A stretch of DNA of 63,021 bases, filler included, from Welwitschia mirabilis (taxonomy: Eukaryota): NCBI GenBank assembly GCA_051453625.1. It is 4 parts of one record of this genome, joined end to end, with 100 filler letters (N's around TTAATTAATTAA, not from the genome) between each part and the next. Parts side by side here need not be neighbours in the genome. Positions count along the whole stretch, not along the records: positions 1 to 15,199 come from JBOZIK010000001.1; 3 more parts are not named here. One strand, given 5' to 3'. The notes under the pieces are model-generated. The model saw only the letters and a program-made list of their open reading frames with translations. It did no database searches and had not been told where the DNA came from. The position numbers and the translations under genes were made by a program. Below, piece after piece: positions 3,655 to 49,254 of the stretch (position 1 is its first letter; each line of letters begins with the position of its first letter).

Positions 3655-3689
<35 letters not shown>

Positions 3690-3863: not shown

Positions 3864-4793
3864 TAGATGGTGATTTTTGAAAATTCCATTGACTTGATTT
3901 TCCATGACTCTAAGGCTATAGCTTTGAGAGCATTCAAAACATATTGGTTATTGGTTAGTAAGTCGTCAAGGTCTCATTTACTATCAAAATGATGATTGGA
4001 TTAAGTTATAATCCTGACATTACATTAATACTTTGCAGTATGACCATAGACATTATCATAATTACTATTCTAGTCACATAATACTCTATGTTGTTTAGCA
4101 TCAAAACATTATTAATAACATCAAATAATTTCTTGATTCATACTAATAGACATTACTAAGGTAATACTAAGAGATGTTTAACCAATCTTCTTCATGTCTC
4201 TGTTTGTCCATTTTCACCTAGTCTTTTCCTAGTATTTGTAATCGATTATCTCAAAGTCATCTTTCGCATTTACTCTAAATTCATTCAAGACTTTTTTCAC
4301 TCTTTAGTTAATTCATTATCTATTAGTACTCAGGCTCCTTTTATTATATGCTCTTCCTTGATCATCGGTCTTGCTTATTTGCATTCCCATTTGATTACCC
4401 TCCATCTTTCATATACTTATTTTGATTGGTTTCTACTTCATTCATCTATATATTTCCTCACTACTATTTTTTCCATTACCTCATTCATAATCTTTTATCG
4501 TTAGCTAATCATCTACTCATTATCTATTCTATGCATATATTTAGATTTGTTTTGACTTATGTCTTCATCATTTATTTGACTCAAACCTTAATTATCTCAA
4601 TTTGATCATTCATTTTATCAAAGTTTTAACATTATATAAATACTTTCTTTTTTAGTCAAAGGGGTTATTTCCTTGATAAAGAAATAAGTATTANNNNNNN
4701 NNNNNNNNNNNNNNNNNNNNNNNNNNNNNNNNNNNNNNNNNNNNNNNNNNNNNNNNNNNNNNNNNNNNNNNNNNNNNNNNNNNNNNNNNNNNN

Positions 4794-5693
4794 GCTTTAG
4801 CTTATGGATCCTTATGCTCTTAGTAATGGTTGCACTCCCTTCATTATGGTAGATGGTGATTTTTGAAAATTCAATTGACTTGATTTTCTATGACTCCAAG
4901 GCTATAGCTTTGAGAGCATTCAAAACATATTGGTTATTGGTTAGTAAGTCATCAAGATCTCATTTACTGTCATAACTGATGATTGGATTTAGTTATAGTC
5001 CTGACATTACATTAATACTTCATAGTATAATCATAGACATTATCATAATTACTGTTCTAGTTACATAATACTCTATGTTGTTTAGCATAAAAACATTATT
5101 AATAACATTGAATAATTCCATGATTCATACCAATAGACATTACTAAGGTAACACTAAAAGATGTTTAACCAATCTTCTTCATGTCTCTGTTTGTCCATTT
5201 CCACCTAGTCTTTTCCTAGTATTTGCAATTGATTATCTCAAAGTCATCTTTCGCATTTACTCTAAATTCATTCAAGACTTTTTTCACTCTTTAGTTAATT
5301 AATTATCTATTAGTACTCAGGATCCTTTTATTTAATGCTCTTCCTTGATCATCAGTGTTGCTTATTTGCATTCCCATTTGATTACCCTCCATCTTTCATA
5401 TACTTATTTTGATTGGTTTCTACTTAATTCATCTATATATTTCCTCACTACTATTCCTCATTCATAATCTTTTATCATTAGCTAATCATCTATTCATTAT
5501 CTGTTCTATGCATATGTTTAGATTTTCTTTGAGTTGTGTCTTCATCATTTATTTGACTCAAACCTTAATTATCTGAATTCGATCATTCATTTCATCAAAG
5601 TTTTAACATTATATAAATACTTTCTTTTTTAGTCAAAGGGGTTATTTCCTTAATAAAGAAATAAGTATTAGAAAGTACAAATTCCCAATGTAA
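4794..5693 (+). repeat. Near-identical direct duplicate of ~3808-4693 (includes 3' part of the motif)
   Basis: Visual alignment; flanked by N gaps, so it may be an assembly/haplotype overlap. Confidence 0.8.
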
Positions 5694-6650: not shown

Positions 6651-7474
6651 TCAGAAATTAGCAGCCAGAAAAGACTGGTTGATAGCAATCTTCTTTCCAA
6701 GTTTAAAAGGTGGAAGTCCCTTATAAGAATAGCTTGCACATCGAAAGGCATCTTCAAGGCCACAATTTCCACAAGTGGATTGTGGGTTCTCCAACTGATC
6801 TATTGTTAACAGCACTTTTTTCTTGGTTCACTTCCATTTTAGCCCTACCACAAGTATAGTTCTTACAAGCTTTTCTAACTATCTTTCGAGCTTCACAATC
6901 ATTGCCTAATAGGACTGAAGGTTTCTTCAAATCCTCTTCTGTTAGGAAATTATCCTTGTTAATAATATCATCCACATCGTCTTCAAACACCAGTAACCCC
7001 TTTCATGTTTGACATCTTTTATATTATTTATAGCAAAAGAAGATCCTACTTCCTATGTAGTTTTTTGAGACCTAATAGCTACTAGTACAAACTGGTCAGT
7101 AACAACATTAACATCTTTCAAAATTATAAATTCTACAAGTAGGATCTTTTGTTTGACAGCAGTTTTCATCTCACTAAGATCCTGATTCAAAGAACTAGCT
7201 TGGTTTATAAAGATAATAGGTACTGCTAGGTAACTCTGAGAACTTCACTAAGCCAAATCTGTGATAGAAAATTCATGATTTCTCGACACAAAGATTAAAA
7301 CATCTAGAGATGAGGATTTTAAATTGAGCTTTACCTCTAGGCGATTCACCTAAGTGATGACATGTAAAGAATCATCTTTGTTTGAAAAAATTTTATAGCC
7401 TAACTAACAAGCCTAGCATGAATTGATGGAGATTCAGAAATAAGTAATGCTGAGGGATGTGAACTCATTTTCAT
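6651..7474 (-). pseudogene. DRE2: Intronless anamorsin (DRE2/CIAPIN1) retrocopy captured in the element
   Basis: N-terminal methyltransferase-like part, DDVDDIINKDNFLTEEDLKKP, DCEARKIVRKACKNYTCGRA, and frameshifted [30 protein letters not shown]...FLAANF*. About 820 nt with no introns; contains stops and frameshifts. Confidence 0.9.
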
Positions 7475-7684
7475 AGCACACTACTTGTTTTGATTTCTTT
7501 CGATTTGCAGTGCGTGAAGAAATAAAAATGAATGTAGAAGGAGCAAAGACAAACACGTCTGAGGCTCAAACTAAAGTAATGATTCAAAGTTGAGAATTTT
7601 CATAGAAAAATAGAACCATTTATTACAGAAATTAAAGCAGAATATCTAGTGGTATCACCAAAACATGAGATCTGATGACAAGGC

Positions 7685-8101
7685 CTAGGAATAAGGAGAA
7701 TCATTAAGAAGATATAGTAAATTATCAGAAATGCATTTCCAATCAGAAATGCAAGATGATAGCTGATTAAAAAAGGCATCAGAGTTAACTTTAAGATCTT
7801 GAAAGCCCTGCATACAAGCATCTACATTAATGACTGCAGTGGTTATGTAAGCCTGGGCATCATTAATACTACTGTGTTTGAACATGCTCCTCTCAATTAC
7901 ATCCACCATCACCTGGTTCATATTATGTTGGTTCCAGAGTACAGAACGGAAAGAGGAATTATGGGGCTTATCACAGCATCTGTGAAGATAGTTTCTTATG
8001 GTAGATGGTCTAATGAAACCAATGATAAGGGTAATGATGATTCCAGTATCATTTGCATCTGAGCTACTTATATTCTTGCCCTGCATGTTCCTATTATTCA
8101 T
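7685..8101 (-). pseudogene. Plant invertase/pectin-methylesterase inhibitor (PMEI) domain gene, captured and internally deleted
   Basis: DAQAYITTAVINVDACMQGF resembles the PMEI DVQTWLSAALTNxxTCxDGF motif; the N-terminal Cx8C is clearer in copy 2; AATAAA at 7624-7619 downstream of the stop. Confidence 0.65.
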
Positions 8102-8189
8102 AGGAGAAAAGGAATAGTCAAAAGATGATGCAAGAATGAATAAGTCTATGATGGCAGGCATTATCATGACTCAGAATTCATTTAGAAAT

Positions 8190-8790
8190 TAGAAGGATCA
8201 CATACAAAATTCTAACTGACAGAAAATATGACATTCTCTCAGTGACTGCTTTTGAAAATAATAAGCACTATTGAACACTTGACACTATAGAGCCCAACGA
8301 AGGTGTAAGAATAGTAATAAGCCATGAAAAGGTGGAAGCCAAATGTCATGAGGGAACATCCATAGAACCACTGAGCAGCAAACTCAAAAAATCCCTTAGT
8401 ACCCAATCCATTGTCTTCGCATTTTCTGAGCAGGGTGATTGGATTCCAAATCAGTTGTTAGTGCTGTCGTAGCCAAACATCATGGGCTCTGGTATGGAAC
8501 GGCTAATGAGGGATGTTATAAGCACTAATGATGTATCAAAAGGAGGGAATGCTCTGAGTTATGAGGACTATACAACACTCTGAAAAATGCAAAGGGTAAA
8601 CCAAAGATTTGAAGCAACATCAGTGCCAATTCTACATAGACTCAGCAAGTTTTGTTTTACTTGAAATCCTCTAAGTTTGAAGCATGACATTGTACCATAC
8701 TAGATGTAATACATTGACTATCTTCTTGTTCTTTTGAAAGATTTACAATCTATGTTAATTAAATAGCCATAACAGATGGCTTCAAATTCA
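8190..8790 (+). pseudogene. Unidentified protein-coding fragment, sense orientation, captured
   Basis: A long, nearly open plus frame (…QGDWIPNQLLVLSxPNIMGSGMERLMRD…EDYTTLxKMQRVNQRF…) is conserved in both units; most stops are explicable by transitions. Family not recognised. Confidence 0.4.
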
Positions 8791-10978
8791 AATATTCTCC
8801 AACTGTCTCTCTTTAATCCAATAAATGCTTCAGAAGCATCCCTAACTGATGGTTTTTCTCTCGACCATTTTTTAGCATCTAAGAACAGAGGAACAGAATA
8901 AAGTAAACAACACAATCAGAAGGAATGTAAAAAGGATGTCACAGATAGATTAAAAAAAAGTTGAAAAACACATTAGAATAGAGAAAATGCATTGCAAAAT
9001 GATACAATAGAACGAGATGGTTGCACATCAAAATGGTGACACAAGAAAGACTACGAGAGAAGAACATAAAGCCAAGACAGGGAAACACATCAAACGCAAT
9101 AGAGAAGTAAAGGAGCATGATAAAAAAGCATAGCAAAATGGAGCAAGCAGCACAAGAAAAGAAAGCATCGACAGCAAAATAGGTTAGAAAACGAGCAGAG
9201 ATAAAGGAATGCTAGAATCAAGGAGACAGCATCATAAGGAGGAAAATCATAGGGGGAGGGCAGTGAAAAAAGAGATCATTCACAAAGAAATGAAATGCAA
9301 TAAAAGAAGGAATAGCAGCCACAGTAAAGGAAATGCAGCAAAGCTACAAACACAGAAAATATCATCAAGGAAAAAAGGAGCAATGAAAAGAAATCCCTGG
9401 AATGCCAGTGGACATCACCAGATACACAGCACAGGATACTAGAATGGCAAAAATTCCAAGGCATAGCATAGAGGCTAGATGTAGGATGGAAAATGGATGC
9501 TAGATGCACTAGTAAAGTAGGGATATCACAAAGAATAACAGAGGTGAAAATGATGACCAGAACATAAGAGGAATGGAGGGACAAAAATCATCAGGCAGGA
9601 AAATTTGCAGATGAGAAAGAAGTGACAGCATGACAAAGAACGCTAAATGCTAGAAAGGAGGAGAAAAACCAAATCAGCAAAGAACACCAAGAAAACTCAA
9701 AGAGCAATACAGAACGACATAGCAAAGAGTGTAAAAAAGTAAATCAGAGGCAACACCAGAATAGCAATACTAGAACAGCAATGAATCACAGATTCAAAAG
9801 AAATAGCACAAACAGATTAGAGATCAGACAACGACGAATGGCAAGCAGGCAGAATGGGGATGTACATCACAATTTTTCTATATTACCTAAAATTATTTTA
9901 GGTTCATTTTGTGTGATCTCTTGAATTGTGAAAGATTTATTTTATGTTTTCAAAATTTAAGATTGTATTTTAGAAGATTTTGCTTTTTAAAAAAAGGGGA
10001 AAGACATTTTTTATATCATAATTATATATTAAATATATTTGACTGATAGACCATTTTATTTTAAAACTAGACTTATGAAATTTGGCTTTTTTTAATTTGA
10101 AATTACATTTTATAAGACTTTGCCTTTAGTTTAAAAAAAAAAAGAAAAATTTTTATGTAATTATATTAAATATTTTGATTGATAGATTATGGGGTTAAAA
10201 GAGAAATTAGATTTGCAAATTTTTTAAAAAAATAATAATTTTAGAAATTTATGAATAAATCCTAAAAATCTCTTCTCTTTTAGGTTTAATCTATAATCAT
10301 TAGTTGTATCTCCATTTCTATGAATATTAGATGAATTCCAAAGTTATTTGATTTAACACTTCCTTGCATTCGATTTATCTCAANNNNNNNNNNNNNNNNN
10401 NNNNNNNNNNNNNNNNNNNNNNNNNNNNNNNNNNNNNNNNNNNNNNNNNNNNNNNNNNNNNNNNNNNNNNNNNNNNNNNNNNNNNNNNNNNNNNNNNNNN
10501 NNNNNNNNNNNNNNNNNNNNNNNNNNNNNNNNNNNNNNNNNNNNNNNNNNNNNNNNNNNNNNNNNNNNNNNNNNNNNNNNNNNNNNNNNNNNNNNNNNNN
10601 NNNNNNNNNNNNNNNNNNNNNNNNNNNNNNNNNNNNNNNNNNNNNNNNNNNNNNNNNNNNNNNNNNNNNNNNNNNNNNNNNNNNNNNNNNNNNNNNNNNN
10701 NNNNNNNNNNNNNNNNNNNNNNNNNNNNNNNNNNNNNNNNNNNNNNNNNNNNNNNNNNNNNNNNNNNNNNNNNNNNNNNNNNNNNNNNNNNNNNNNNNNN
10801 NNNNNNNNNNNNNNNNNNNNNNNNNNNNNNNNNNNNNNNNNNNNNNNNNNNNNNNNNNNNNNNNNNNNNNNNNNNNNNNNNNNACTTCCTTACATTAGAC
10901 TTATTTTAATTTTAAAGGTTAAAAATAAAACCAAAGTCACAAATTTAATATTGCAAAAGAAAAATTTTAACAACAATT

Positions 10979-11520: not shown

Positions 11521-12850
11521 TTGATAAAATTCAACATGCTATGGAAGGCCATCAATGACATAAAACGAGGTCTCCAAAGTAAGAAAAACTACCTCAATAT
11601 AGACTTCGATAATACAATGATTTACCCTTCTATCCATCGTAAAGTTATCTCACCTAGTGAAATTCCCAATTTTGAGAAATTTATAAGTGTTGAAAACCCT
11701 ATAATTCATGTTAAAAACTTTAAACACTCCTGTCACATGTACAATATAGAGCGAGACACCACTTGTCATCTAGTTTATCGATATCTCCAATGAAAAGCCC
11801 TCAAATGGTATCATTGCTTACTAACCCATTCCATCACAAGTCTCAAATAACTATTTGAGATGTTTATACAACATAACTCGATAAACATCACAAAGAGAAT
11901 AATCCTAGACTCATTAACAATAATGAAACAAAAATTTAGTGAAATCATTAAAGATTATGCTCAATAATAGAGTGTTATTGCTTTGCAATTAGAAACCCCC
12001 ATTGTGGATTCTGATATGACATATCTCTTTGCCAAGTCATGCATCCCATATGTCTCAGAATATTTCAGGATGCAAGCATCTGAAATATTTGAATAGGTAG
12101 TTACATTAGTAAAGAAAATCAAAGTCATAAGAAGAGAAAAGGATGCTATAAAATATGGAAACACATCACAAAATGAATCAACAAGAAGAGAAAATAACAA
12201 CAACAATAATAAAATGAATAATACAAAGAATGTATCAGTAGTCAACCAAACCTCTCAACCTATTCAATCTTCTCAATGAAGCTATCCATCTCAACCAATT
12301 GCCAGTCCAATCATGCAATAAGTACATCCTTAACCTTATTTTCCTCCACATGCTTTTACATTTCAACTAGTTATGGGATAACCTTATTACCCACCTACTC
12401 AACAATTATAGAGTTTCTAAGCACAATCACTACCTTAATAATGACAATTCCAACCACCTTAATAACAGCTCCAAAATCAATAGCAACTTTTACAACTCAA
12501 AACCAAGACCAAAATCGATCTTAAAAGCAAAACACAATTCAAAGACCTAGAAGAAACTTCACTAGGTTATAAATTCCATTGACAAAGATCTTTGGAATTT
12601 TACTACAAAAGGGGGTAATTCAACTGCCTCCAATTAGTAAAAAATATCCTAATGCATCAAAATCCAAGGGTTACAAGTCGAAATACTATGAATATCACAG
12701 GATTAGGGGACATTATACTAAAAACTATTTTAGCTTAAAATACATTATCTAAGACATTATCAAAAACAAAAAAGATATTAAATTTGATACAATCCTCACA
12801 GCTGTAAATGAACAACTTGAGATCTATAAGAACCCCTTTCTAACTCAAGC
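11521..12850 (+). pseudogene. gag: Degenerate gag, unit 2
   Basis: IPNFEKF..ENPIIHVKNF, KALKWYHCL..HSITS, LTIMKQ..SE, YEYHRIRGHYTKNY; Retrotrans_gag-like. Confidence 0.8.
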
Positions 12851-14691
12851 CTCTACATCACAAACATGTTTGGTGGTTTAAGATGATAACACCTCATATG
12901 CAATTTGGGTGATCAAAGGATAATCGAAAAACCCATTAGAACAAATCATCCAAGAAAACAAGTAGAAGCTACAATGGTTAGTCGAAATAGAAGATGCTCA
13001 AATTCGACTCACCCTACAATCAAACATTCAATCACAATTACATGCCTCTAAAGTAGAGGAAGCATATCATCACCTCTCTTCATTAATTAAAAGTTCAGAA
13101 TCTTACAAACAAGCCTTTGAAAGATTATGTGAGGAATGTTTAACATCAAAGATACCTCCAAAACAACAACCTACTTCAAACCANNNNNNNNNNNNNNNNN
13201 NNNNNNNNNNNNNNNNNNNNNNNNNNNNNNNNNNNNNNNNNNNNNNNNNNNNNNNNNNNNNNNNNNNNNNNNNNNNNNNNNNNNNNNNNNNNNNNNNNNN
13301 NNNNNNNNNNNNNNNNNNNNNNNNNNNNNNNNNNNNNNNNNNNNNTTAAATGTCATAGGATTATCTTGTTTAGATAAACTCAATCTATAACATTTACTAG
13401 ATTTGAAAAAGAGTGTAACAATTAGGTTTTAATGATCAAGAATAAAAATCCAAAGGAATAGTTACGTTACCAATTGAGGTAGCTTAAAAGGTTAACAATG
13501 CTACTATGTTCAATTTACTCCTAAGTCATCCTTGAATCATGGATACAAGGGTAATTATTTAATTATCCCATCAAAAGCTCAAGTTCATTAGATGAAAGAT
13601 CTCAGGGACATTAGAAAGAAATCACATACTGGTAAATGATAAAGCACGATCTCAAGCATCTTTCTCATCATCACCTTAAATTCTAGAAAAGAGAATACTG
13701 TCATTCTTGCACNNNNNNNNNNNNNNNNNNNNNNNNNNNNNNNNNNNNNNNNNNNNNNNNNNNNNNNNNNNNNNNNNNNNNNNNNNNNNNNNNNNNNNNN
13801 NNNNNNNNNNNNNNNNNNNNNNNNNNNNNNNNNNNNNNNNNNNNNNNNNNNNNNNNNNNNNNNCACTTATCCTTTTTGGTTATAGTAGTTCATTACATTT
13901 TCTCATATAAATCCTCTTTTATGCTACCTTCTTTTACAAAAAACATCCATCCATCTACTTGATAACAGCATGTTTCATTTACTCATTCTCTTTCTTTTAA
14001 TAATTTATCATGTAGTTCATAATTTCTACTTTGCATTCAATCTTTTTAAACTTGTCAATGATATTTTTCTTAGTTAATTTATCTTATTTCGTTACATTAT
14101 GTCTGAGTACATGCTTTTATAATAAATTAACTATTAAGTAATCAAAGTCTTATTTTATTTAGTAATGCATTTTAAATAACTTCCTTGAGTTCTCAATTTA
14201 GATGCTAAGAAAGAACTTAGTATTAATGGACAATAGTTGAGATTATATTAATAATCATCATAATACTCTTGACATGATAGAAGCAATTGAGTCATCTTTA
14301 TCTAAATGGATCCTTAGGAGAGTTTCTTAGTTAAAGTCATTTTTTTGTTTGATCACCGATTTTGTTTGGTCATATGTTAAACCACATTTAAGTTTTCATG
14401 AAAGTAGTTTTTCAACTTTGGATATTTACAGTGGTAAGATTGTATTTCACCCAATCTTAAAACATTTACACATCTATGACATTCAATGCCTTATGTTCTT
14501 TTGTCCTAGTATTGATTTGTATAAAATCTGATGTTTGTTCTTAGTACTGAATCTTACGATATACCATCTCAATAATCAATTAATATTCGTTAAAAAAAAG
14601 AAAGAGAAATTCAAGTCAATTGGTAAAATATCAATACCATGCACCAAAAAAAAAGAAAAAAAAAGAAGAATATAATATTATTAATAATAAT

Positions 14692-14858
14692 TATGATGTC
14701 CTACCGCAAGTGCACTAGGGTAAATATTCCTGAAAGGGGCCTTTGGCAGTGCAATATGGTAGCTGTGGAAACTCCACCGGGGCATCAGTTCATCATGATC
14801 TGGCTTTAGCTTGCAGATCCTTATGCTCTTGGTAATGGTTGCACTCCCTTCATTATGT
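14692..14858 (+). ncRNA. Putative structured cis-RNA motif, best-preserved copy
   Basis: GTCCTA/TAGGG stem around CGCAAG; AGTGCAAT(14748-55)/GTTGCACT(14838-45); GTGGA-AAC-TCCAC hairpin (14765-77); closing ATGATG/CATTAT. Confidence 0.5.
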
Positions 14859-15299
14859 TAGATGGTGATTTCTGAAAATTCCATTGATTTGATTTTCCAT
14901 GATTCCAAGGCTATAGCTTTGAGAGCATTTAAAACATATTGGTTATTAGTTAGTAAGTCGTCAAGGTCTCATTTACTATTATAGCTGATGATTGGATTGA
15001 GTTATAGTCCTGACAATTTATTAATACTTCATAGTATAACCATTAGACATTGTCATAATTACTGTCTTAGTCACATAATACTCTATGTTATTTAGCATTA
15101 AATCATAATTAATGACATTAAATAATTTCATAATTCATACCAATAGATATTACTAAGATGACACTTAGAGATGTTTAACCAATCTTCTTCATGTATCTAN
15201 NNNNNNNNNNNNNNNNNNNNNNNNNNNNNNNNNNNNNNNNNNNTTAATTAATTAANNNNNNNNNNNNNNNNNNNNNNNNNNNNNNNNNNNNNNNNNNNN

Positions 15300-15920
15300 A
15301 GTACAATTCTTACAAGCTTTTCTAACTATGTTTTGAGCTTCACAATCATTGCCTAATGGGACTGAAGGTTTCTTCAGATCCTTTTCTATTAGTAAATTAT
15401 CCTTGTCAATAAGATCATCTACATCATCTTGAAACACTGGTAATCCCTTTTCATGTTTGACATTTTTTGTGTTATTTATAGCAAAAGAAAATCCTACTTT
15501 CCAAGTGGTTTTTTGAGACCTAATAGCCGCTAGTACAAACCAGTTGGTAATAAAACCAACATCTTTTGAAATTATAAATCCTACCAGCAGGAGCTTTTGT
15601 TTGATAGCAGTTTTCATCTCATTAAGATCCTGATTTGAAGAAGTGGTTTGGTTTATAAAAACAAAAGTACTGCTAGGTTTCAAAACTCTGAGAACTTCGC
15701 TGAGCCAAATCTGTGATGAAAAATTCATGATTTCTCGACACAAGGATCAAAACATCGAGACATTAGGATTTCAAATTGAGCTTTGCCTCTAGGCGATTTG
15801 CCTAAGTGATGACACGCAAAGAATTAGCTTTATTTGAAAAACATTTTATAGCCCAACTAACCAGCCTAGCATGAATTGATGGGGATTCAGAAATAAGCAA
15901 TGCTGACGGAGTGAGCTCAT
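15300..15920 (-). pseudogene. DRE2: Anamorsin (DRE2) retrocopy, unit 2 (3' end in gap)
   Basis: ORF 15252-15743: EVLRVLKPSS…FQDDVDDLIDKDNLLIEKDLKKP…DCEAQNIVRKACKNCT. Confidence 0.9.
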
Positions 15921-16136
15921 TTCTATAGCACACTGCTTGTTTCGATTTCTTCTAGTTTGCATTGTGTGAAGAAACAAAAATGAATGTAGAAGGAGCAAAG
16001 AAAAACGCGTCTAAGGCTCAAACAAAAGTGATGATTCGAAGACAAGAATTTTTACAGGAAAACAAAACCATTTATTACAAAAATTGAAGCAAAATATCTA
16101 GCAACATCACCAAAACATGAGATCTAATGATAAGGC

Positions 16137-16728
16137 CTAGGAACAAGGAGAATCATTAAGAAGATATAGCAAATTATCAGAAATGCATTTCCAGTTAAAA
16201 ATGCAAGATGATAGCTGATTGAAAAAGGCGTCGGAGTTAACTTTGAGATCCTGAAAGCTCTGCATANNNNNNNNNNNNNNNNNNNNNNNNNNNNNNNNNN
16301 NNNNNNNNNNNNNNNNNNNNNNNNNNNNNNNNNNNNNNNNNNNNNNNNNNNNNNNNNNNNNNNNNNNNNNNNNNNNNNNNNNNNNNNNNAAGAGTCTTCT
16401 ATCTCCTATTAAATGAGGTGTACAAATGCAATGCACACCACAAATTTCAAATTGTATGCCACCTGTCACCACCTCAATGCATGTAGTACACAAATTTAAT
16501 AGGACTAGGAAAGCAGTTTAACTTCTTCGTTATATTATGCTGGTTTTATAGTACAGAGCAGAAATAGGAATTATAGGGCTTATCACAGCGTTGGCTTATC
16601 ACAGCTTCTGTGAGATAGTTTCTTATGGTAGAGGGGCTAATGAAACCAATGATGAGGGTGATGATGATTCCAGTGCCATCTGTATCCAAGCTACTTACAT
16701 TCTTGCCCTACGCGTCTCTATTATTCAT
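16137..16728 (-). pseudogene. PMEI-domain gene, unit 2
   Basis: ISQRCDKPYNSYFCSVL (Cx8C); C-terminus MQSFQDLKVNSDAFFNQLSSCI…ISDNLLYLL matches unit 1. Confidence 0.6.
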
Positions 16729-16835
16729 AGGAGGAAAGGGATAGTCAAAAAACGATGCGAGAGTGCGCAAGTCCGTGATGGCAGGCATCATCATGACTCA
16801 AAATTCATTCAGAAATTAGAAGGATCCCATACAAA

Positions 16836-17400
16836 ATGCTAACTGATAGAAAATACGGCATTCTCTTAGTGACTGCTTTTGAAAACGGCAAGCACTGTCC
16901 AACACTCGACACTGCAGAGCCCAACGAAGGCAGAAGAACAGTAACAAGCCATGAAAAGATGGAAGCCAAATATCACAAGGGAACAGCCACAAAACCACTG
17001 AGCAGCAAAATCAGCAAATCTCTTAGTTCCCAATTCATCGTCTTTGCATTTTCTGAGCAGGGCGATTGGATTCCAAATCAGTTGGTGGTGCTGTCGAAGC
17101 CAAACATGATATGCTCTGGTGTGGAATGGCTAATGAGGGATGTTATAAGCACTAATAGTATGTCAAAAGGAGGGAATTCTTTGAGTTATAAGGACTATAA
17201 AACACTCTGGAAAATGCAGACGGTGAACTAAAGATTTGAAGCAACATCAGTGCCAATTTCACATAGACTTGGCAAGTTCTGTTTCACTTGAAATCCTCCA
17301 AGTTTGAAGCATGGCGTTGTACCATACTAGATGTAATACGTTGACTATCTTCTTGTTCTTCCAAAAGATTTACAATCTATGTTGGTTAAACAGCCATAAC
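16836..17400 (+). pseudogene. Unidentified coding fragment, unit 2
   Basis: 131-aa ORF 16836-17231 continues past point stops (…HGVVPYxMxYVDYLLVLPKDLQSM). Confidence 0.4.
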
Positions 17401-19374
17401 AGACGGGCTTCAAACTCAGATATTTTCCAACTATCTCTCTTTAATCCGATAAACGCTTCAGAAGCATCCCTAGCTGAGGGTTTTTCTTCGGGCCGTTTTT
17501 GAGCATCCAAGAACAGAGGAATAGAACAAAGTAAAAAACGCAATCAAAAGGAACATAAGAAGAACAGCACAGGCGAAAAAAAAAAGTTGAAGAACACACT
17601 AGAACAGAGAAAATGCATCACCAAACAGCACAGCAGAACGAGACGTATGCACACCAGAATGGTGACACAGGAGAAGAACGTAAAGCCAAGACAAGGAAAT
17701 GTGTCAGACGCAACAGAGGAGCAGAGGAGCATGAGAAAAGAGCATAGCAAAATGGAGCAGGTAAAAAGAGAGCATCCGCAATGAAACAGATCAGAAAACA
17801 AGTAGAGACAGAGGAACACCAGAATCAAGGAGACGGCATCAGGAGGAGGAAAATCAGATGGGGAGGACAGTGAAAAAAGAGATCATTCATGAAGAAACGA
17901 AATGCAATAGAAGCAGCAATGGCAGCCATAGTAAAGGCGACATAGCAAAGCTGCAGACGCAGAAAATATCACCAAGCAAAAGAGGAGCAACGAAAAGAAA
18001 ACCCCAGAACACCAGCGGACATCACCAAAGACCCAGCATAGGACATTAGAACGGCAAAAATGACAAGGCACAACACAGAGGCTAGACGCAGGATGAAAAA
18101 CGGACGCTAGACGCACTAGTAAAGCAGGAACATCACAAAGAATAACAGAGGCAAAACAATGACCAGAACACAGGAGGAATAGAGGGACGGAAAGCATTAG
18201 GCAGCAAAATTTGCAGACGAGGAAGGAGCGACAGTGCACAACAAAGAACGCTAAATGCTTGAAAGGAGGAGGAACACCAAATTGGCAGAGAAGGCCAAGA
18301 AACATCAGAGAACGGTACAGAAGGACAACGACGAACGTGATTAGAGATCAGACAATGACGAACGTGAGTAAGCAGAACAAGGACGCACATCACAATTTTT
18401 CTATATCACCTGAAATTATTCCAAGTTCATTTTGTGTTATCTCCTGAATTGTGAAATACTTGTTTTATTTTTTCAAAATTTGAGATTGCACTTTAGAAGA
18501 TTTTACTTTTAAAAAAAAAGGGGGAAAGATATTTTCTTATATCATAATTATATATTAAATATTTTTGACTGATATATTATTTTATTTTAAAATTAGACTT
18601 GCGAAATTAGCCTTTTTTATTTGAAATTACATTTTATAAGACTTTGCCTTTAGTTAAAAAAAAAAGAAAATTTTTCTTTCTGTAATTATATATTAAATAT
18701 TTTGATTGATAGATTATGGGGTTAGAAGAGAAATTAGATTTGCAAATTTTTAAGAAAAAACAATTTCAGAGATTTATGAATAAATCCTAAAAATATCTTC
18801 TCTTTTGGGTTTAATCTATAATCATTAGTTGTATCTCCATTTCTATTAATATTAGATGAATTCAAAGTTATTTGATTTAACACTTCCTTGCATTAGACTC
18901 ATCTCAATTTTAAAGGTTGAAAATAAAACCAAAATTATAAATTTAACATTGCGAATAAAAAAAATTTAGCAACAGTATCAACAAGAGATGTTAGTTGTCC
19001 CCTGAATGAAGGTAAAATTTACTAAACATTTTTTAGCTCCAAACTAACCTATTATGTAAGAATTTCTATTGGGGTGCCTACAAAGTTTATGCTAAGTGGT
19101 TGGATCCAAAATTTCACAAATAAGAATGAATTTATGAAGAGAGAGTTAGTTCTAGTTCATTCTCAGTGTCTAATGATTCTAAAGCATGCAATGATGGAGT
19201 GAAAGGAAATTAGCAGAAGGTAATCCACAACATTCTATGACATCTAGAAATCTCCTTGTATAGGTTATGTGAGATCATCATGATATAAACAACACCTATT
19301 TTTATTTACACAAATATGCTTTACAAAAACAAATATTGGGACTATATTACGTAGAGTATTGTTAGAATACCTAC

Positions 19375-19550
19375 CTGTCTGCAATAATATTTCAATAGTA
19401 CTGACATATCCTCTACATACAGCAGAGTGAAGTGGAGTCCATCCTCCTTCATCTCCACTATCAATGGTGTTTAACATTAGATCACCGTCTGCTAAAATGC
19501 AAACCACGTTGTCGTGCCCTGCAGCAGTGTGCGCTGGAGCTCTTCCATGT
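19375..19550 (-). pseudogene. Ankyrin-repeat exon resembling 26S proteasome regulatory subunit 10 (gankyrin)
   Basis: GRAPAHTAAGHDNVVCIL…IDSGDEGGWTPLHSAVCRGYVSTIEILLQTG followed by donor AG|GTAGGT (19374); possible acceptor TGCAG| at 19519. Confidence 0.65.
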
Positions 19551-20571
19551 GGATGAATGACAGAATCATCCTTGAAGCTCTCTCCTCAGCAATAAGACGC
19601 AGGTAACTTCAAGTCAATGACGACGCAAACTTGAGACTGGAGGAGCTTATTCACCAGAATAACAAACACAGCTCTGCATTCTGGTGGATTCAGTGAAGAT
19701 CCTTCTTCCCATTCTGCTTTGCATTTGAAGCAGAAAAAGCTGATTTTGCAGATGAATTGGAGATCATTCAGAAGGCAGATAAGCTAAGTTCCACCCCGGG
19801 AAGTACACAGAGTCCGGCGCAGACAGAGTTGAACCCTTACTGTTCGAGCACAACCGTTGCCACCATTCTCTGCCACAAAGTCTGTGATACTGTTAACACT
19901 TGGGTGCTGCATGCCACCCAATTGCTACTTAAAAAACAAGGGTGAAGATTGAAAATGCCAAGGCTACCTCATCTTGGATACAGCAATTCCACAAAATAAA
20001 TAAATAATATTATTTTCTAAAATAAGCATAATTATCTATGCACTTTTTTTTTTCATCTTTTCATTTTATTATTAGTGTAAACTTTTGAAACTTGTAATAG
20101 GGCCAATTTTAAAAAATTTATATAATATGACATGGTACTAATAGCATGTAGTCTTTTCTCCTAGTAATTTTTGCATCCATCTTAGATTTGATTTAATAGG
20201 ATTTGATTTAATGGCACTAAAATGTATTACTAAGAACATAATTAAGATATAAGATTTGTGATTATTATGTTTGAGTGAAGTCAATAAACTTGTACTCTAA
20301 GTACAAAGTTATTTTCAAGTATCACAATTAATAATTAAATTCATAAAAAAGAACATACATTTACCTTATAAAGGATGATTAAATAACAAATTCAATATAT
20401 AGAAATAATCTCTTATATTACCCTATCTAAAAGTAAAGGCTATGATGGCATACACCATCTCATTAAGATTTGATAAAGTGATTGGGACAAATTGCCAGTA
20501 GTGAGATACTTAGAAATGTCATGATACCAAGATGACTTAGTAGTAGTGGAAATTAAAGCCTTCACTCTTTC

Positions 20572-27670: not shown

Positions 27671-27801
27671 TCATGATGTCCTATCACAAGCACACTGGAG
27701 CAAATATTTCTGAGACAGGCCTTTGGCAGTGTGATCTGATAGCTATGGAAACTTCACTAGGGGGGTCAATTGGCCATGCTATGTGGGTCCTTACTCCTCT
27801 G
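27671..27801 (+). ncRNA. Conserved RNA-like motif copy in A1 (truncated by gap)
   Basis: Aligns to 14692-14858. Confidence 0.5.
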
Positions 27802-33177: not shown

Positions 33178-33334
33178 CCATGATATCTTACTGCAAGTAC
33201 ACTAGGGTAAATATTTCTAAGAGGAGCCTTTGGTAGTGTAATATGGTAATTATAGGAACTCCACTTTGAGGTCAATTGGCCATGCTTCATAGATCCTTAC
33301 TTCTCTGATTGTGATTGCACTCTCCTCATTATGG
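33178..33334 (+). ncRNA. Conserved RNA-like motif copy in B1
   Basis: CCATGATA…CATTATGG termini; aligns to the other copies. Confidence 0.5.
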
Positions 33335-36266: not shown

Positions 36267-38900
36267 ATGTCGAGTGCTTCTCATAAATAAAAACAAGTAG
36301 TAGGATCTTCTATTAATCTTACCCTTAGAGAATTATTAGCCAATAAAAAAGGTAAATTCAAAAACCTTTTTACCTATCACTAGGAGATGATGTAGAGCTC
36401 AAAAATTTACATGCCTATCTAAATTTTAGTGGAGAAGATGATGAGGATCCCCTTTAACACATTGGTGATATTGAACAACTTATCTTTACCTCGGAAAATG
36501 GGAAGAAAAAAATAATGAATAAAACATATATGATAATCTTCTCCATAACATTAAAGGGTAAGGTAAAACTTTGGCTAAAAACTTTACCTCAAAAAAGCCT
36601 AAAAACATGGGATCAAATCTAGGAAACCTTTATGAAAATATTAATGAGTGAAGAAACTATTAGAAAAAGAAAAAAGGAGATAACAAACTTCCAATAAAAA
36701 CCAAATGATGACTATGCCTCCACATATGAGCGTTTCTTTATAGTAATCCACTCTAATCTAGTAGAGGATTTTTCATCAACAAAACTAATAAACTATTTTT
36801 ATATTGAGCTAACTCTACACATAAAATAAATTGTAGATTTTTTTTTAATGAAGAAAATCTCATGAATCTTACTTTAGAAGAGGGATAAACAAAATTAAAA
36901 GAACTTGTGGAGGTTAGTAAAACTTAATCAATACTTAAAGAAAATCAAACGATAAACCAAATCATCAAGGACTTAAAACAAGTAAAGTAATAAAAATAAG
37001 TAGAAGACAACCCTACAAATTCTATAAGGGAATTTATAACAACCTTAGAGAAATATGTAAAAATGATCTTAGATGCTAANNNNNNNNNNNNNNNNNNNNN
37101 NNNNNNNNNNNNNNNNNNNNNNNNNNNNNNNNNNNNNNNNNNNNNNNNNNNNNNNNNNNNNNNNNNNNNNNNNNNNNNNTCTATGCTATTATTTAATTTT
37201 GATTTTTTAGATTTAATTTTATGTAAAAAAAGTATGATTGTCCCCTCTATCGTCCCCATAACAGACAGGATGATAGCCTGCTATTTTTGTTTTTGGTTTA
37301 TTTTTGGATTGCAATTTTTTCTATAATAAATTATTCTTTACTGTCTCTTCTGATGTTTAGACAACCAGGTGGACGACAGGCTCTCTTTTATGTTTTTTAC
37401 TTTCTATTTTAGTTTCAGTTCTATTTCTATTTTTCTGGTTTTTGTGTTTATCATCTAGATGATAGATAAAATGATGGTCTATTTTTTAATCATTTTCTAT
37501 TATTTACTAGTTATAAGATGTTATGATATGATCAACTTAAAGAAGAAATATTTGACAGAAAAGCAACTTATAGAAAAGAACCTCAAAGAACAACTAGTAA
37601 AAATAGAAGATAAATTGGAAAGACAATCTCCAAGTGCACTCAATTTCCCTTCTAAATTTATTTTTTCTAAATATAATTCCTTTAACAAAAAAAATAGTAG
37701 AAGGAGATAATCAAATCACAATGTCGATTACCTCTCATAAACAAAAACAAGTCATAGGATCTTTTACCTCTAATGAAAACCTTATCCTTAGAGAATGATT
37801 GGCCAATAAGAAATGTAAATTCAAACACCATTTGACCTACCCCTAGGAGATGATGTAGAGCTCAAACATTTACATGCCTACCCAACTTTTAGTGGAGAAG
37901 ATGATGAGGATCCCATAACACATTGTAGAGATGGAACAACTTATCCTCACCTTGGGAAATAGGAAGAAAAAATAATGCATAAAACTTATATGGTAATCTT
38001 TTCCATGATATTAAAAGGTAGGGCAAAACTTTGGCTAAAGAATTTACCCAATAAGATCTTTAAAACATGGGATTAAGTTTGGGAAACTTTTGTGAAAAGA
38101 TTCATAAGTGAATAAACTATAAGAAAGAGAAAAAGAAATATAACAAACTTTCAATAAAAACCAATGAAGACTATGCCTCCATATATGAGCATTTCTTTGT
38201 AACAGTCCATTCTAATCTAGTAAATGCCTTTTCAAGGTAGAACAACTAAACTACTTTTATAGTGGGCTAACTCCACACACAAAAGAACTTACAGATTCTT
38301 CTTGTGGAGGAAATCTCATGAACCTTACACTAGATGATGGCTAGAAAAATTTATAAGAACTTGTAGATGTTAGTAAAACTTAGTTAACTCTAAAGAAAAT
38401 TAAATTATTAGGCCAACTCATTAAGGACTTAAATTAAGTAAAGATACAAAAAGAGGTAGAAGATAACCCTATAAATTCTATGAGGGAATTTATAAAAACC
38501 TTCAAGAAGTATGCAAAAATGATCTTAGATACTAAAACCATAACTGAAAGAAATGTTGTGCCAACTTGTGATTTATGTAAGGACAACTATCATATCATCA
38601 AATATTATCCTCTTTTACCAACTTACAAAGAAAAATTTATGAAGAAGTTTGTACTTTCAATTAACCATCTTAAAACTTTCGAAACCAAAATCAGGCATAA
38701 TCAAGGTTAAACACAAATTTTCAAAACAATCCTCAACCATTAACTGAAAGAAATGTTGTGCCAACTTGTGTTTTAGGTAAGGACAACTATCATATGATTA
38801 AATATTATCCTCTTTTACCAACTTAAAAAGAAAAAATTCATGAAGAAGTTTGTACTTTTAATTAACCATCTTAAAACTTTTGAAACCAAAATCAGGCGCA
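36267..38900 (+). pseudogene. gag: Degenerate Athila-type gag, present twice (36267-37079 and 37721-38900)
   Basis: CLPNFSGEDDEDP, IFSITLKGKVKLWLKTLP…KTWDQ, ITNFQxKPN, knuckle CDLCKDNYH. Confidence 0.8.
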
Positions 38901-39519
38901 ATTCAAAAATGTAAACTACCCACCAAGTTCATCAAACTTTTATTATCTAAATGAGTAACTCATAAACCTTATGGATGAAAATATTTTTCAACAAACAATC
39001 TTAGCAAACTAAAGACCTTAACTAGCTTTACCTACACAACCTTTACCCAACTCAAATGAACTAAAAAGAGATTACAAGGTTATGATAAGAAGTGGATAAT
39101 AAACAAACCCTCTTTCATGTGAACCTTCCATCTTCTAGAATAATGAAGAAAGAGAGGAAGAGGACATTGAAATTTTAGATAATTACAACTTCCCTTCTCT
39201 TGGCAAAAAAAATAAAATAAAATAAAGAAAGAAAAGTGTGTCTACCTCTTTTCTTGATAGGCTTAACAACAATTCAACTTTTAATGATCATTTAAAATTG
39301 TTAATAAAAACATAAGCATAAACTTACCATTTTGGAAAGTTTTACAAGAAAATCCAAGATACTAAAAACTATGGAAATACTTAGTCAGAAGAAAATAAAA
39401 ATGAGTCATCCTTAGTAAGGTATTTCTTACCCAATCCCTTACAAATTTAGTGTTACAAAAATCACCCAAATTTAAAGATCTAGGAGCATAAACGGTAATG
39501 TTACTATAGAGGGAAACAA

Positions 39520-39880
39520 AAAGATAATAAAAGATTTGATTGACATTGGAGTGAGTGTTAACATTATGCCACTCTACACTTATAAGAGACTTGTTTTGGA
39601 GGATAGAATAGAGCCTACCTTGGTTGTCTTAGAATTAGTAGATGCATTAGTTAAGAAAGCATTAAGCGTCATAAAAAATTTAGTAATACGAATTGAAGAG
39701 GCTTGCTATCCAATTAATGTGATTATCATAAACGTTGAGCATAACATAGGATATCCTTTACTTTTGGGTAAAGCCTTTTATACAATAGCCCACTGCATCA
39801 TTGATACAAGAACAGGAACCATGAAATGTCATTTTGGAAATAGAACTTTCACAATTAGAGTCTTTAATGTAGCTGAGAAA
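39520..39880 (+). pseudogene. Aspartic protease domain of B2
   Basis: ORF 39536: IDIGVSVNIMPLYTYKRL…YPINVII…PLLLGKAFYTIAHCIID. Confidence 0.85.
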
Positions 39881-40564
39881 GATTTGGATGATGATGATAT
39901 GAACATTAAAGAGAATGTTAAATCTACTTTATTTTTGCAACATCACCCACTTGAAAAAAGAGAGATGAAACCAAAAGAGCATGTGCTTTGTGCTGATCAA
40001 CTTAAGAATGAAGAAGAAAATAAACCTTTTGAGTATGAGGAAGTCCCACTTGTTAAGAAAAATCATAAGGAATATTGTCCATTTCATAAGCTAAAAATTA
40101 AGAACCATAAATTGAATTTGAAAAAGAAAAATTTTTTTAATGGACCTAAAAATAATTTTTTGGGTAATGTTCCAAATAAAACTCTTGCATTTCATGAAAA
40201 TCTTTCACTTAAATTACTTTTCTCTTCTCTTTGACTTCCAAAATTTGTACTTTGATNNNNNNNNNNNNNNNNNNNNNNNNNNNNNNNNNNNNNNNNNNNN
40301 TTAATTAATTAANNNNNNNNNNNNNNNNNNNNNNNNNNNNNNNNNNNNNNNNNNNNTCAATTGAGGAAAGATGCTTTATTTTTATGTTTTTTTCAATGGT
40401 GAACAGGTCTTAGATTATTTAAGAGTGTTCTTTTCTGTATTAATCTTTTTAACTTTGACCTTTATCTTTAAAGTATTTGGTCATGTGGAATGTTGTTTTA
40501 TTTTCAAAAAAAAAGTGAAATTAAAATCATGATGTTTTATATTTATATCTCAATAATATGGTCA

Positions 40565-40721
40565 CCATGATGTGCTATTGTAGGTATATTAGGGCAAATA
40601 TTTCTAAGAGGAGCCTTTGGCAGTGTAATATGGTAGCTGTGAAAACTCCACTAGGAGGTCAGTTGGCCATGCTTTGTAGGTCCTTACTTCTCTGATAGTG
40701 GTTTCACTCCCTTTATCATAG
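40565..40721 (+). ncRNA. Conserved RNA-like motif copy in B2
   Basis: Aligns to the other copies; ATGGTAGCTG/CAGTTGGCCAT stem is intact. Confidence 0.5.
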
Positions 40722-49098: not shown

Positions 49099-49254
49099 CC
49101 ATGATGTCCTATTCCAAGCACATTAAGGCAAATTTTATCAAAAAGGGTCTTTAGCAATGTGATATGGTAGCTATAGGAACTTTATTGAAGGGTCAGTTGT
49201 CCATGATACATGGTCCTTACTCCTTTGATAGTGGTTGCACTCCCTTCATCACGA
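49099..49254 (+). ncRNA. Conserved RNA-like motif copy in A2
   Basis: CCATGATG…GGTTGCACTCCCTTCATCACG. Confidence 0.5.

What the first reader, a model, noticed from the sequence alone, without database searches (positions are those of the whole stretch)
14692..14858. A ~160-nt structured, possibly pseudoknotted RNA motif shared by Tat-like and Athila-like non-autonomous retroelements
Seen: near-colinear copies at 3698-3863, 4794-4849 (partial), 14692-14858, 27671-27801 (partial), 33178-33334, 40565-40721 and 49099-49254. They always lie between the internal ORF and the PPT, and all six copies with a visible 5' flank follow an A/T-rich unstructured tract. The carriers have different LTRs, PBSs (tRNA-Asn vs tRNA-Asp) and gag types. 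The motif stays GC-rich and alignable while the flanks diverge. Pairings read by eye from the consensus: CCATGATG/CATCATGG closing stem; GTCCTA/TRGGGC stem around a C-GCAA-G tetraloop; ATGGTAGCTG/CAGTTGGCCAT enclosing a GTGGA-AAC-TCCAC hairpin; AGGGGCC/GGTCCTT and AGTGCRAT/RTTGCACT, which cross (a-b…a'-b') and so form a pseudoknot. Inference: a cis-acting RNA domain (packaging/dimerisation signal, ribozyme or translation/stability element) that lets pol-less elements exploit a helper. I do not recognise it as a known Rfam family.
Basis: partly seen in the sequence, partly recalled or inferred. Interest (0 to 1): 0.85.

Follow-up and report, generated by a model that had tools for sequence, protein, structure and literature searches.

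The report
Conserved RNA-like motif in plant retroelements
A roughly 160-base non-coding segment is the main stretch still shared by otherwise unrelated, very abundant retroelement-like repeats, and it probably folds as an RNA signal, though its job is unknown.

Summary
All seven listed copies are real, all on the + strand, and no others exist in the window. They fall into two repeat groups: A (3698, 4794, 14692) and B (27671, 33178, 40565, 49099). Between the groups only the motif and one 100-nt patch align. In DNA runs of two species labels the motif core is about 10-800x deeper than the other bins.

It matches no Rfam family and no tRNA. It shows no coding signal.

The RNA reading is partly supported. 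The six copies give a consensus fold better than shuffled alignments on the + strand only (z -3.4 to -3.8). Double compensatory changes occur in two helices.

Four points weaken it. Single copies fold no better than shuffles. Subsets of two or three copies are not significant. No copies from outside the window could be obtained.

Carrier classification (Tat/Athila, PBS types) could not be verified. Three artificial scaffold joins cut the contexts.

Best reading: a new cis-acting 3'-UTR RNA module of pol-less retroelements (confidence about 0.5).

The parts
14692..14858 (+). Motif copy, group A (the finding)
   Evidence: blastn self and cross hits; CM R1 168.3 bits
3698..3863 (+). Motif copy, group A; 1-nt deletion relative to the others
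   Evidence: 83.7% identical to 14692 over 166 nt; alignment A5
4794..4849 (+). Partial motif copy (3' third), group A; follows a 100-N gap and lies inside a local duplication of 3808-4693
   Evidence: CM E=0.0026 at 4809-4850
27671..27801 (+). Partial motif copy, group B; cut by an artificial scaffold join
33178..33334 (+). Motif copy, group B
40565..40721 (+). Motif copy, group B; starts 208 nt after an artificial join
49099..49254 (+). Motif copy, group B (most diverged)
14692..14698 (+). P1 5' strand (UAUGAUG); pairs with 14851-14857 (CAUUAUG) as the closing stem.
   Evidence: 91.4% of cells paired, no double change; kept in the 5-copy consensus fold
14701..14762 (+). 5' domain, a long irregular hairpin: P2 14701-14706/14757-14762, P3 14711-14716/14748-14753, P4 14717-14721/14739-14743
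   Evidence: Consensus fold. P3 is 100% paired, with 3 of 6 pairs changed on both sides. The domain is predicted from group B alone and kept in group A.
14765..14777 (+).
   Evidence: 83.3% paired; 2 of 5 pairs have double changes but 5 cells are unpaired
14780..14828 (+). P6, the 3' domain hairpin (14780-14794 with 14816-14828). Its loop holds the 11-12-nt indel that separates groups A and B.
   Evidence: 5 of 12 pairs changed on both sides. Predicted from group A alone and kept in group B through GC>AU, CG>GU, AU>GC and UA>CG changes.
14829..14850 (+). Conserved, mostly unpaired 3' tail (..GGUUGCACUCCCUU).
Evidence: Candidate loop-tail helix: 24 of 25 cells paired, 1 double change. I chose it by eye on these same copies.
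14646..14670 (+). A-rich purine run upstream of the motif; an equivalent run is present in 5 of 5 copies with readable flank
14386..14485 (+). Second island shared by groups A and B (matches 32855-32948), with inverted repeat TAAGATTG..CAATCTTA
   Evidence: 80% over 100 nt; alignment A6; DNA depth 14,000-21,000 against 1,800-4,600 in neighbouring bins in X1
37996..38170 (+). gag-like stretch in a group B carrier (approximate coordinates)
   Evidence: Pfam Retrotrans_gag E=6.7e-05, 23.5 bits against cut-off 24.1, residues 269-326 of the frame from 37192
39476..40234 (+). ORF with retroviral aspartyl-protease-like features; separated from motif copy 40565 by an artificial join
   Evidence: No Pfam hit. 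Atlas feature search gives Asp_protease_2 / RVP_2 Streptophyta clusters at score 0.93-0.94. Join shown.

Best explanation
The motif is a non-coding, sense-strand RNA module in the 3' untranslated part of several families of abundant, pol-less retroelement-like repeats of a plant. It sits downstream of the internal ORFs and about 1 kb upstream of the LTR-like block.

Fold (inferred). A closing stem P1 encloses a long irregular 5' hairpin (P2-P4), a small GUGGA-AAC-UCCAC hairpin (P5) and a 3' hairpin (P6) whose loop tolerates an 11-12-nt indel. A conserved single-stranded tail follows.

Mechanism (inferred, not shown). It acts in cis on the element's full-length RNA as a handle read by a trans factor, so elements without their own enzymes can still be processed. 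My estimates are about 0.2-0.25 for a nuclear-export or stability element of the CTE/RTE/MTE type, about 0.15-0.2 for selection for packaging by a helper's Gag, and about 0.1 for another RNA-level role. One such role would be a pause or template-switch point next to the upstream A-rich run.

Shown: conservation as an island, high abundance, absence of coding signal, a strand-specific consensus fold, and some compensatory changes.
For: 1. Island of conservation. Groups A and B share only the motif and one 100-nt patch at DNA level. At protein level, translated A frames hit B DNA only at that patch.

2. Abundance. In Logan contigs of two species labels, depth in bins 14719-14763 and 14764-14808 is 488,324 and 242,248 (X1) and 282,669 and 126,545 (X2). 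The other 28 bins are 617-24,911 (X1) and 980-27,891 (X2). Loose ends at 14776-14790 continue in group-B-type sequence.

3. Not coding.
- Variation by codon phase is 0.263, 0.242 and 0.225.
- pN/pS is 0.62, 0.53 and 0.56 in the three frames; the ATGATG frame is not the lowest.
- 0 Pfam hits for 9 frames.
- The profile search of 1.84 billion proteins gave 1 hit, a tandem-repeat protein matched in 8 stretches.
- The minus-frame profile gave none.

4. Consensus fold.
- + strand: E -21.74 against -12.30+-2.80 for column shuffles, z -3.37, 0 of 300.
- With a shuffle preserving consensus dinucleotides: z -3.80 for 6 copies (0 of 300) and -3.47 for 5 copies.
- - strand: z -0.78 and -1.24; +0.25 and -1.15.
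- Eight flank alignments give z between -1.86 and +0.42.

5. Covariation.
- 13 pairs and 21 cells changed on both sides, against 9.5+-2.3 cells in shuffles (0 of 500). Partners slid by 1-3 columns give 3-6 cells.
- The covariance term is 3.52 against 1.12+-0.96 (P=0.003).
- Cross-validated: folding group A alone and scoring group B gives 15 double-compensated cells against 3.65+-2.33 (0 of 400).
- Pair 21-63 of A5 is C-G in 3 copies and U-A in 3 copies, split across both groups.

6. Indels fall in loops or junctions.

7. Transcription. RNA-seq reads of one species label cover the stretch: 409 reads laid in X14 and 246 in X17, most under 90% alike, so they come from related copies.
Against: - Single copies are not unusually stable: MFE z +0.96 (14692) and -0.15 (40565) against dinucleotide shuffles.
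- Subsets are not significant: B only (3 copies) z -1.12, A only -0.47, the 33178/40565 pair +0.27. The signal appears only when A and B are combined, and no flank control of equal depth exists.
- Folding B and scoring A gives 1 double change against 0.34 expected (P=0.21). The B-only fold puts the 3' hairpin in a register that breaks in A.
- All but one of the compensated pairs changed by transitions. Transitions dominate the differences in this repeat (counts by kind of change). The 15 cross-validated cells come from only 6 pairs (4 of them in P6), in copies that share ancestry.
- There are only 6 copies in 2 groups. Two metagenome scans and one viral scan found no further copies, so an R-scape-type test was impossible.
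- The RNA reads lie about equally in both directions, so the transcribed strand is unknown.
- No autonomous element with the motif was seen.
- Function is wholly inferred.
Confidence: 0.5

Rival explanations
1. A neutral passenger of modular reshuffling. The 3' region was passed between families by recombination or template switching of co-packaged RNAs fairly recently. It looks conserved only because it is younger than the flanks, and the apparent covariation is chance among transition-rich decayed copies.
For: - A preprint passage describes non-autonomous LTR families as shaped by 'reshuffling and modular evolution'.
- Within group B the motif-bearing 3' region sits behind at least two unrelated upstream contexts: gag/protease-like, and an acidic ORF type.
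- Within group A the motif (83.7%) is no better conserved than its flank (85.8%).
- Subsets of copies give no fold signal.
Against: - A and B share two colinear islands (patch and motif) separated by about 200 nt that no longer aligns. Uniform neutral decay after one transfer would not produce that.
- A-B fixed differences in P6 are compensatory at 4 pairs predicted from group A alone.
- The fold signal is strand-specific.
Confidence: 0.2
2. A DNA-level element, such as an internal promoter or enhancer, or a binding-site cluster for a host or element protein. It would be conserved as double-stranded DNA rather than as RNA.
For: - Long invariant unpaired stretches, for example CCTTTGG and GGTTGCACTCCCTT.
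- RNA-seq reads in both directions.
- Single-copy folding stability is unremarkable.
Against: The consensus fold and covariation appear on the + strand only, and the fold relies on G-U pairs that the other strand cannot form. The promoter/terminator scan was not run, so there is no positive evidence for this reading.
Confidence: 0.1
3. A decayed coding segment: a small ORF starting at the conserved CC-ATG-ATG (M-M-S-Y..GLWQCNMVAVETP..), or part of an antisense extra ORF like those of Retand elements.
For: - One + frame has few stops. It is open for 39-46 codons in 14692, 40565 and 27671 and runs in one frame throughout in 49099.
Against: - No codon periodicity.
- pN/pS in that frame (0.62) is not below the other frames (0.53, 0.56).
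- Stops or frameshifts occur within the motif span in all six copies, and the 11-nt A/B indel breaks the frame.
- No Pfam family in 9 frames.
- No real homologue among 1.84 billion representatives nor for the minus frame.
Confidence: 0.05
4. A captured small-RNA gene or SINE-like module (as with 5S in Cassandra), or a self-cleaving ribozyme as in retrozymes.
For: Its size (about 160 nt), its higher GC than the surroundings and its compact predicted fold. Precedents appeared in the search listing (Cassandra, Helenus/Ajax, retrozymes; titles and abstract starts only).
Against: - No Rfam family reaches gathering score in the whole window.
- Around 14692 the best E-value is 1.2; around 40565 nothing reaches E<=10.
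- ARAGORN finds no tRNA-like gene.
- RNA reads show no pile-up of molecule ends in the stretch (table 6: none).
Confidence: 0.05

Closest known systems
RNA transport elements of simple retroviruses and mouse LTR retroelements (CTE of MPMV, RTE of IAP, MTE of MusD)
   Same: These are structured cis-acting RNAs in the 3' part of the genomic RNA, upstream of the 3' LTR. They are found in unrelated elements. [quoted passage not shown] The CTE's size and position are recalled, not read here.
   Different: No sequence or Rfam match. The host is a plant, where the review states that no direct study of LTR-retrotransposon RNA export exists. Factor binding and export activity are untested.
Conserved non-coding internal domains of LARD and TRIM non-autonomous elements
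   Same: [quoted passage not shown]
   Different: Those domains are family-specific. Here a 160-nt module is shared by families whose remaining sequence does not align, and at least one carrier keeps gag/protease-like remnants (TR-GAG-like). The original LARD paper was not read.
Lineage-specific conserved non-coding motifs of plant LTR retrotransposons (SIRE motifs; ATHILA LTR-internal junction motifs)
   Same: Short non-coding sequences conserved across families and hosts within a lineage (passages; title and abstract start of PMC2829016 in the listing).
   Different: Those motifs lie at the PBS or PPT junctions or in LTRs and are described as sequence motifs. This one is internal, about 1 kb from the LTR-like block, longer, and carries a fold signal.
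Packaging (Psi) and dimerisation signals shared by parasite/helper pairs such as BARE-2/BARE-1
   Same: A cis signal that lets a defective element use a partner's proteins (passage on BARE-2 depending on BARE-1 for packaging).
   Different: Such signals usually lie in the 5' leader (recalled). No helper carrying the motif was seen. A palindromic loop hexamer (GUGCAC) is present in 1 of 6 copies only.

Membership tests
Any Rfam 15 family (including hammerhead, twister, HDV and other ribozymes, tRNA, 5S, snRNA, snoRNA) | Covariance-model score at or above the family's gathering score | tested here: not met
   0 matches in the whole window. Best E=1.2 around 14692. 0 matches at E<=10 around 40565.
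tRNA- or 5S-derived retroelement modules (Cassandra-like, SINE-like) | Recognisable tRNA or 5S gene structure | tested here: not met
   ARAGORN finds 0 genes in the window; no Rfam 5S or tRNA hit.
CTE/RTE/MTE-type RNA transport element | Lies in the genomic RNA between the last ORF and the 3' LTR | tested here: inconclusive
   Copy 33178 is about 1.2 kb and copy 40565 about 1.0 kb upstream of the LTR-like block starting at 34523 and 41730. The ORF-to-motif link for 40565 crosses an artificial join, and LTR ends are degraded.
CTE/RTE/MTE-type RNA transport element | Conserved, defined RNA secondary structure | tested here: inconclusive
   Consensus fold z -3.4 to -3.8 on the + strand only, with compensatory pairs. 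Single-copy z is about 0 and subsets are not significant.
CTE/RTE/MTE-type RNA transport element | Binds the host export machinery and promotes export of unspliced RNA | not testable with these tools
   Needs reporter and binding assays.
Packaging or dimerisation signal shared with an autonomous helper | The same signal is present in the helper element | not tested
   No pol-bearing element with the motif lies in the window, all 7 copies being in pol-less contexts as far as scanned. The genome is not held.
Packaging or dimerisation signal shared with an autonomous helper | Conserved self-complementary loop for kissing dimerisation | tested here: not met
   GUGCAC occurs in 14692 only; the other 5 copies have non-palindromic variants at that place.
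Protein-coding exon or extra ORF (e.g. antisense TRP28 / Transposase_28 of Retand) | Open frame with a codon-position substitution pattern and protein homologues | tested here: not met
   no periodicity, pN/pS equal across frames; 0 Pfam hits; no homologues.
   0 matches at <=3 mismatches in the window. Decay by transitions may hide it.
LTR retrotransposon (group A carrier) | A pair of long terminal direct repeats | tested here: not met
   No internal direct repeat in either group A copy. The only hit, 10884-10975 ~ 18882-18974, merely extends the copy-to-copy homology. The unit may be cut by the window start and by a join.

The most novel reading that the evidence does not exclude
This would be the first plant counterpart of the retroviral and retrotransposon RNA transport elements (CTE/RTE/MTE). 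It would be a portable, roughly 160-nt structured 3'-UTR module that recruits a host or helper factor to full-length retroelement RNA. It would have been exchanged among unrelated non-autonomous families and would account for their joint amplification to very high copy number.
Probability: 0.2. Interest if true: 0.75.

Novelty: new member of a known kind. Interest (0 to 1): 0.5.

Why it matters
How plant LTR-retrotransposon RNAs are exported, stabilised and chosen for packaging is largely unknown. A 2025 review states that direct studies of their nuclear export have not been done. How pol-less families reach high copy number is also unclear.

A short module conserved across families would give a concrete, testable handle. 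It could be moved onto reporters, mutated helix by helix, and used as bait for the binding factor. It would also serve as a sensitive seed for annotating non-autonomous elements that protein-based tools miss.

If the fold signal fails in a genome-wide set, the motif is still a useful marker of modular reshuffling among these families.

Tried and rejected
- Own genome: not held.
- Earlier findings of the scan: nothing for this genome or for two motif copies.
- More copies from outside the window: a 25-nt core pattern gave 0 hits in metagenome and viral contigs. A 22-position invariant pattern gave 0 hits in metagenome contigs. So no independent copies were available and no R-scape-type test was possible.
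- Sequencing runs: no RNA holder was listed by the index. RNA runs were laid as raw reads instead.
- Splicing: none of the 15 joint rows shown has RNA support; 135 further rows were not shown.
- The 252-aa protease-like ORF against longer proteins: none. Pfam: none.
- Pfam on + frames upstream of 49099, 33178 and 27671: only one weak hit, well below its cut-off (PH_alsin, E 0.017). Group A frames: only one weak, below-cut-off hit.
- Literal sequence strings in the paper library returned only unrelated primers and constructs.
- Ideas considered by eye only, from recalled knowledge, and dropped:
  - miRNA target or mimic sites. The motif contains 9-10-nt seed-like matches only.
  - An ENE-type triple-helix clamp for the upstream A-rich run. 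There is no pair of U-rich internal-loop strands, and the run is on the wrong side.
  - A DIS-like GUGCAC palindrome, present in 1 of 6 copies.
It is neither confirmed nor excluded. Its strands compete with P3 and P6, which do covary.
- Tandem repeats in 13864-19000: none.

Full report

Yes. A covariance model built from six of them and run with filters off finds these six at E<=3.7e-28 and the seventh, partial copy at E=0.0026. The next-best match has E=0.59.

Two copies are partial only because N runs cut them. The motif has GC 0.39-0.48 in a window whose 2-kb GC runs from 0.15 to 0.38.

**2. How independent are the copies?**

Self-comparison shows two groups.
- Group A is one long repeat present twice: 1-10975 and 11891-18974, 82-89% identical over the longer aligned blocks. 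It carries copies 3698 and 14692. Copy 4794 belongs to a local 93% duplication.
- Group B carries 27671, 33178, 40565 and 49099. Its flanks are homologous to varying extents.

Between A and B only two things align: the motif, and a 100-nt patch about 200-300 nt upstream (14386-14485 ~ 32855-32948). Translated A frames hit B DNA only at that patch.

Five of five readable upstream flanks carry an A-rich purine run.

Three N44-TTAATTAATTAA-N44 blocks at 15200-15299, 27802-27901 and 40257-40356 are artificial scaffold joins. One cuts copy 27671. One separates the gag/protease-like ORFs from copy 40565.

**3. Abundance and transcription**

No genome is held, so I laid public runs on 13864-15199 at 80% likeness.
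- In contigs of two species labels, the two bins covering 14719-14808 reach 488,324 and 242,248 (X1) and 282,669 and 126,545 (X2).
- The other 28 bins lie at 617-24,911 (X1) and 980-27,891 (X2).
- Contig ends at 14776-14790 continue in group-B-type sequence.

The core is therefore shared by far more copies than group A's own flanks. These depths are sums over contigs, so I draw no copy number from them.

Two RNA-seq runs cover the whole stretch thinly, in both directions: 409 and 246 reads, mostly under 90% alike and hence from related copies. None of the joint rows shown has RNA support.

**4. Known RNA or coding?**

- RNA families. No Rfam family reaches its gathering score in the window. 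Nothing better than E=1.2 appears around 14692, and nothing at E<=10 around 40565. ARAGORN finds no tRNA.
- Open frame. One + frame starting at the conserved ATGATG has few stops.
- Substitution pattern. Variation by codon phase is flat at 0.263, 0.242 and 0.225. pN/pS is 0.62 in that frame against 0.53 and 0.56 in the others. The A/B indel is 11 nt.
- Homologues. Nine frames give no Pfam hit. A profile of the peptides against 1.84 billion representatives gives one hit, a tandem-repeat protein matched in eight stretches. The minus-frame profile gives none.

Coding is not supported.

**5. Is it a structured RNA?**

The covariation equals the shuffle mean, with 5 double-change cells against 4.8.

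A long 5' hairpin (P2-P4) pairs CUAYYG with UGGUAG, YRCACU with AGUGYR, and AGGGY with GCCUU. A 3' hairpin (P6) pairs GGGCAU..CAGUUGG with ..AUCCUUAUGCUC.
- 93.5% of 231 cells pair.
- 13 pairs and 21 cells are changed on both sides, against 9.5+-2.3 in shuffles (0 of 500).
- With slid partners the figure is 3-6 cells.

*Controlling for selection on the same data.* Because that fold was chosen on these sequences, I refolded shuffled alignments.
- Column shuffle, + strand: E -21.74 against -12.30+-2.80, z -3.37, 0 of 300.
- Shuffle preserving consensus dinucleotides: z -3.80 for six copies and -3.47 for five. The covariance term is 3.52 against 1.12+-0.96, P=0.003.
- The - strand gives z between -1.24 and +0.25.
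- Eight flank alignments give z between -1.86 and +0.42.

*Cross-validation.*
- A fold predicted from group A alone is kept in group B through GC>AU, CG>GU, AU>GC and UA>CG changes in P6. That is 15 double-compensated cells against 3.65+-2.33 (0 of 400).
- A fold from group B alone predicts the 5' domain, which group A keeps.
- The B-only fold misplaces the 3' hairpin, and that direction is not significant: 1 against 0.34.

*Other features.* Pair 21-63 is C-G in three copies and U-A in three, split across both groups. Indels fall in loops or junctions.

**6. What weakens the RNA reading**

- Single copies fold no better than dinucleotide shuffles: z +0.96 and -0.15.
- Subsets of two or three copies give z between -1.12 and +0.27. 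The signal exists only when A and B are combined, and no flank control of equal depth can be made.
- All compensated pairs but one changed by transitions, the dominant change in these decayed repeats.
- The cells counted share ancestry.
- Only six copies exist, and three collection scans found no others.

I therefore rate 'conserved + strand RNA structure' as likely, not shown.

A pseudoknot remains possible. The conserved tail ..CACUCCCUU can pair with the GAGGGG of the P4 loop: 24 of 25 cells pair, with one double change. I picked that helix by eye on the same copies.

**7. The carriers**

- Group B holds a Retrotrans_gag match just under Pfam's cut-off (E=6.7e-05, 23.5 against 24.1 bits).
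- It also holds an ORF whose features resemble plant retroviral-type aspartyl proteases (Atlas score 0.93-0.94; no Pfam hit).
- The regions upstream of 33178, 49099 and 27671 instead share an acidic ORF with no Pfam family.
- Group A shows only a zinc-knuckle-like string that I read by eye in the translation, and no LTR pair.
- The Athila PBS 13-mer, taken from a preprint passage, is absent at <=3 mismatches. The same passage says it fits both tRNA-Asn and tRNA-Asp.

The labels 'Tat-like', 'Athila-like' and 'different PBSs' therefore remain unverified. That the motif lies on the sense strand, downstream of the ORFs and about 1 kb upstream of the LTR-like blocks, is supported for group B.

**8. 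What it most likely is**

A non-coding, cis-acting RNA module of the 3' untranslated region of pol-less (TR-GAG/LARD-like) retroelements. It was either kept under selection while the rest of the 3' region diverged, or moved between families.

Position, size and portability resemble the RNA transport elements of simple retroviruses and mouse LTR elements. Review passages read here describe RTE and MTE, and state that plant LTR-retrotransposon RNA export has not been studied directly. A packaging signal for a shared helper is the next most likely role. Conserved RNA structure in non-coding internal domains is already reported for LARDs and TRIMs (passage). Modular reshuffling of non-autonomous families is also reported (passage), and it underlies the main rival, a neutral recombined passenger.

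**9. Verdict**

- Observation: confirmed.
- Interpretation: partly supported. The motif is a structured-RNA candidate with a fold different from the one proposed, and its function is unknown.
- Novelty: a new member of a known kind.
- Interest: moderate (0.5). It would rise if a genome-wide covariation test and a reporter assay succeed.

**10. Literature read**

- Abstract and outline of PMC11963269.
- Passages of the ATHILAfinder preprint, PMC12786077, PMC7215508 and the sugar-beet preprint.
- Search listings only for all other titles.
- No paper describing this motif turned up in those four searches. Supplements were closed.

Noticed in passing
15200-15299, 27802-27901, 40257-40356: Three identical N44-TTAATTAATTAA-N44 blocks (a six-frame stop linker). 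They are artificial joins between scaffolds, so adjacency across them is not assured. Other N runs of 10, 100, 500 and further sizes are ordinary gaps.
   Followed up: yes
14386-14485 and 32855-32948 (also about 48795-48870): A second island shared by groups A and B, about 200-300 nt upstream of the motif. It holds a conserved inverted repeat TAAGATTG..CAATCTTA, and DNA depth there is several-fold above the neighbouring bins.
   Followed up: partly
14646-14670, 40506-40530, 49007-49058, 27605-27650, 33105-33130 (approximate): An A-rich purine run (poly(A)- or PPT-like) precedes the motif in 5 of 5 readable copies. It could mark a junction made by template switching onto a polyadenylated short transcript, or it could be an internal purine tract.
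   Followed up: no
15252-15746 (-), 7688-8170 (-) and 16137-16517 (-): Antisense ORFs inside the group A repeat give weak Pfam hits: Anamorsin_N (E 0.0014) and PMEI (E 0.004), both below cut-off. They may be captured host-gene fragments or chance matches.
   Followed up: partly
26750-27250 and 47408-48022 (+): Homologous acidic ORFs (..NDEDDA.ISFDNLFDESN..) lie upstream of motif copies 27671 and 49099, with related sequence upstream of 33178. They have no Pfam family. This internal type differs from the gag/protease-like one.
   Followed up: partly
3808-4693 ~ 4794-5670; 35719-37079 ~ 37190-38535: Two local tandem duplications (93% and 78%), each spanning a 100-N gap. They may be real or may be assembly artefacts.
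   Followed up: no
34440-34620 and 41730-41900: The start of the LTR-like block contains roughly 150-nt tandemly repeated units. A purine-rich string AAGTGGAGGG lies just before 41729.
   Followed up: no
16500-18450 and 8900-9920: A purine-rich, GC-richer stretch (GC 0.36-0.38, AT skew about +0.3) gives long K/E/R-rich pseudo-ORFs on the + strand of both group A copies.
   Followed up: no
19268-19585 (-): An ORF whose translation looks ankyrin-repeat-like (..GWTPLHSAV..G....IEILL..G). This was read by eye only.
   Followed up: no
14711-14716 and 14840-14845: The hexamer UGCACU occurs twice in the motif.
   Followed up: partly
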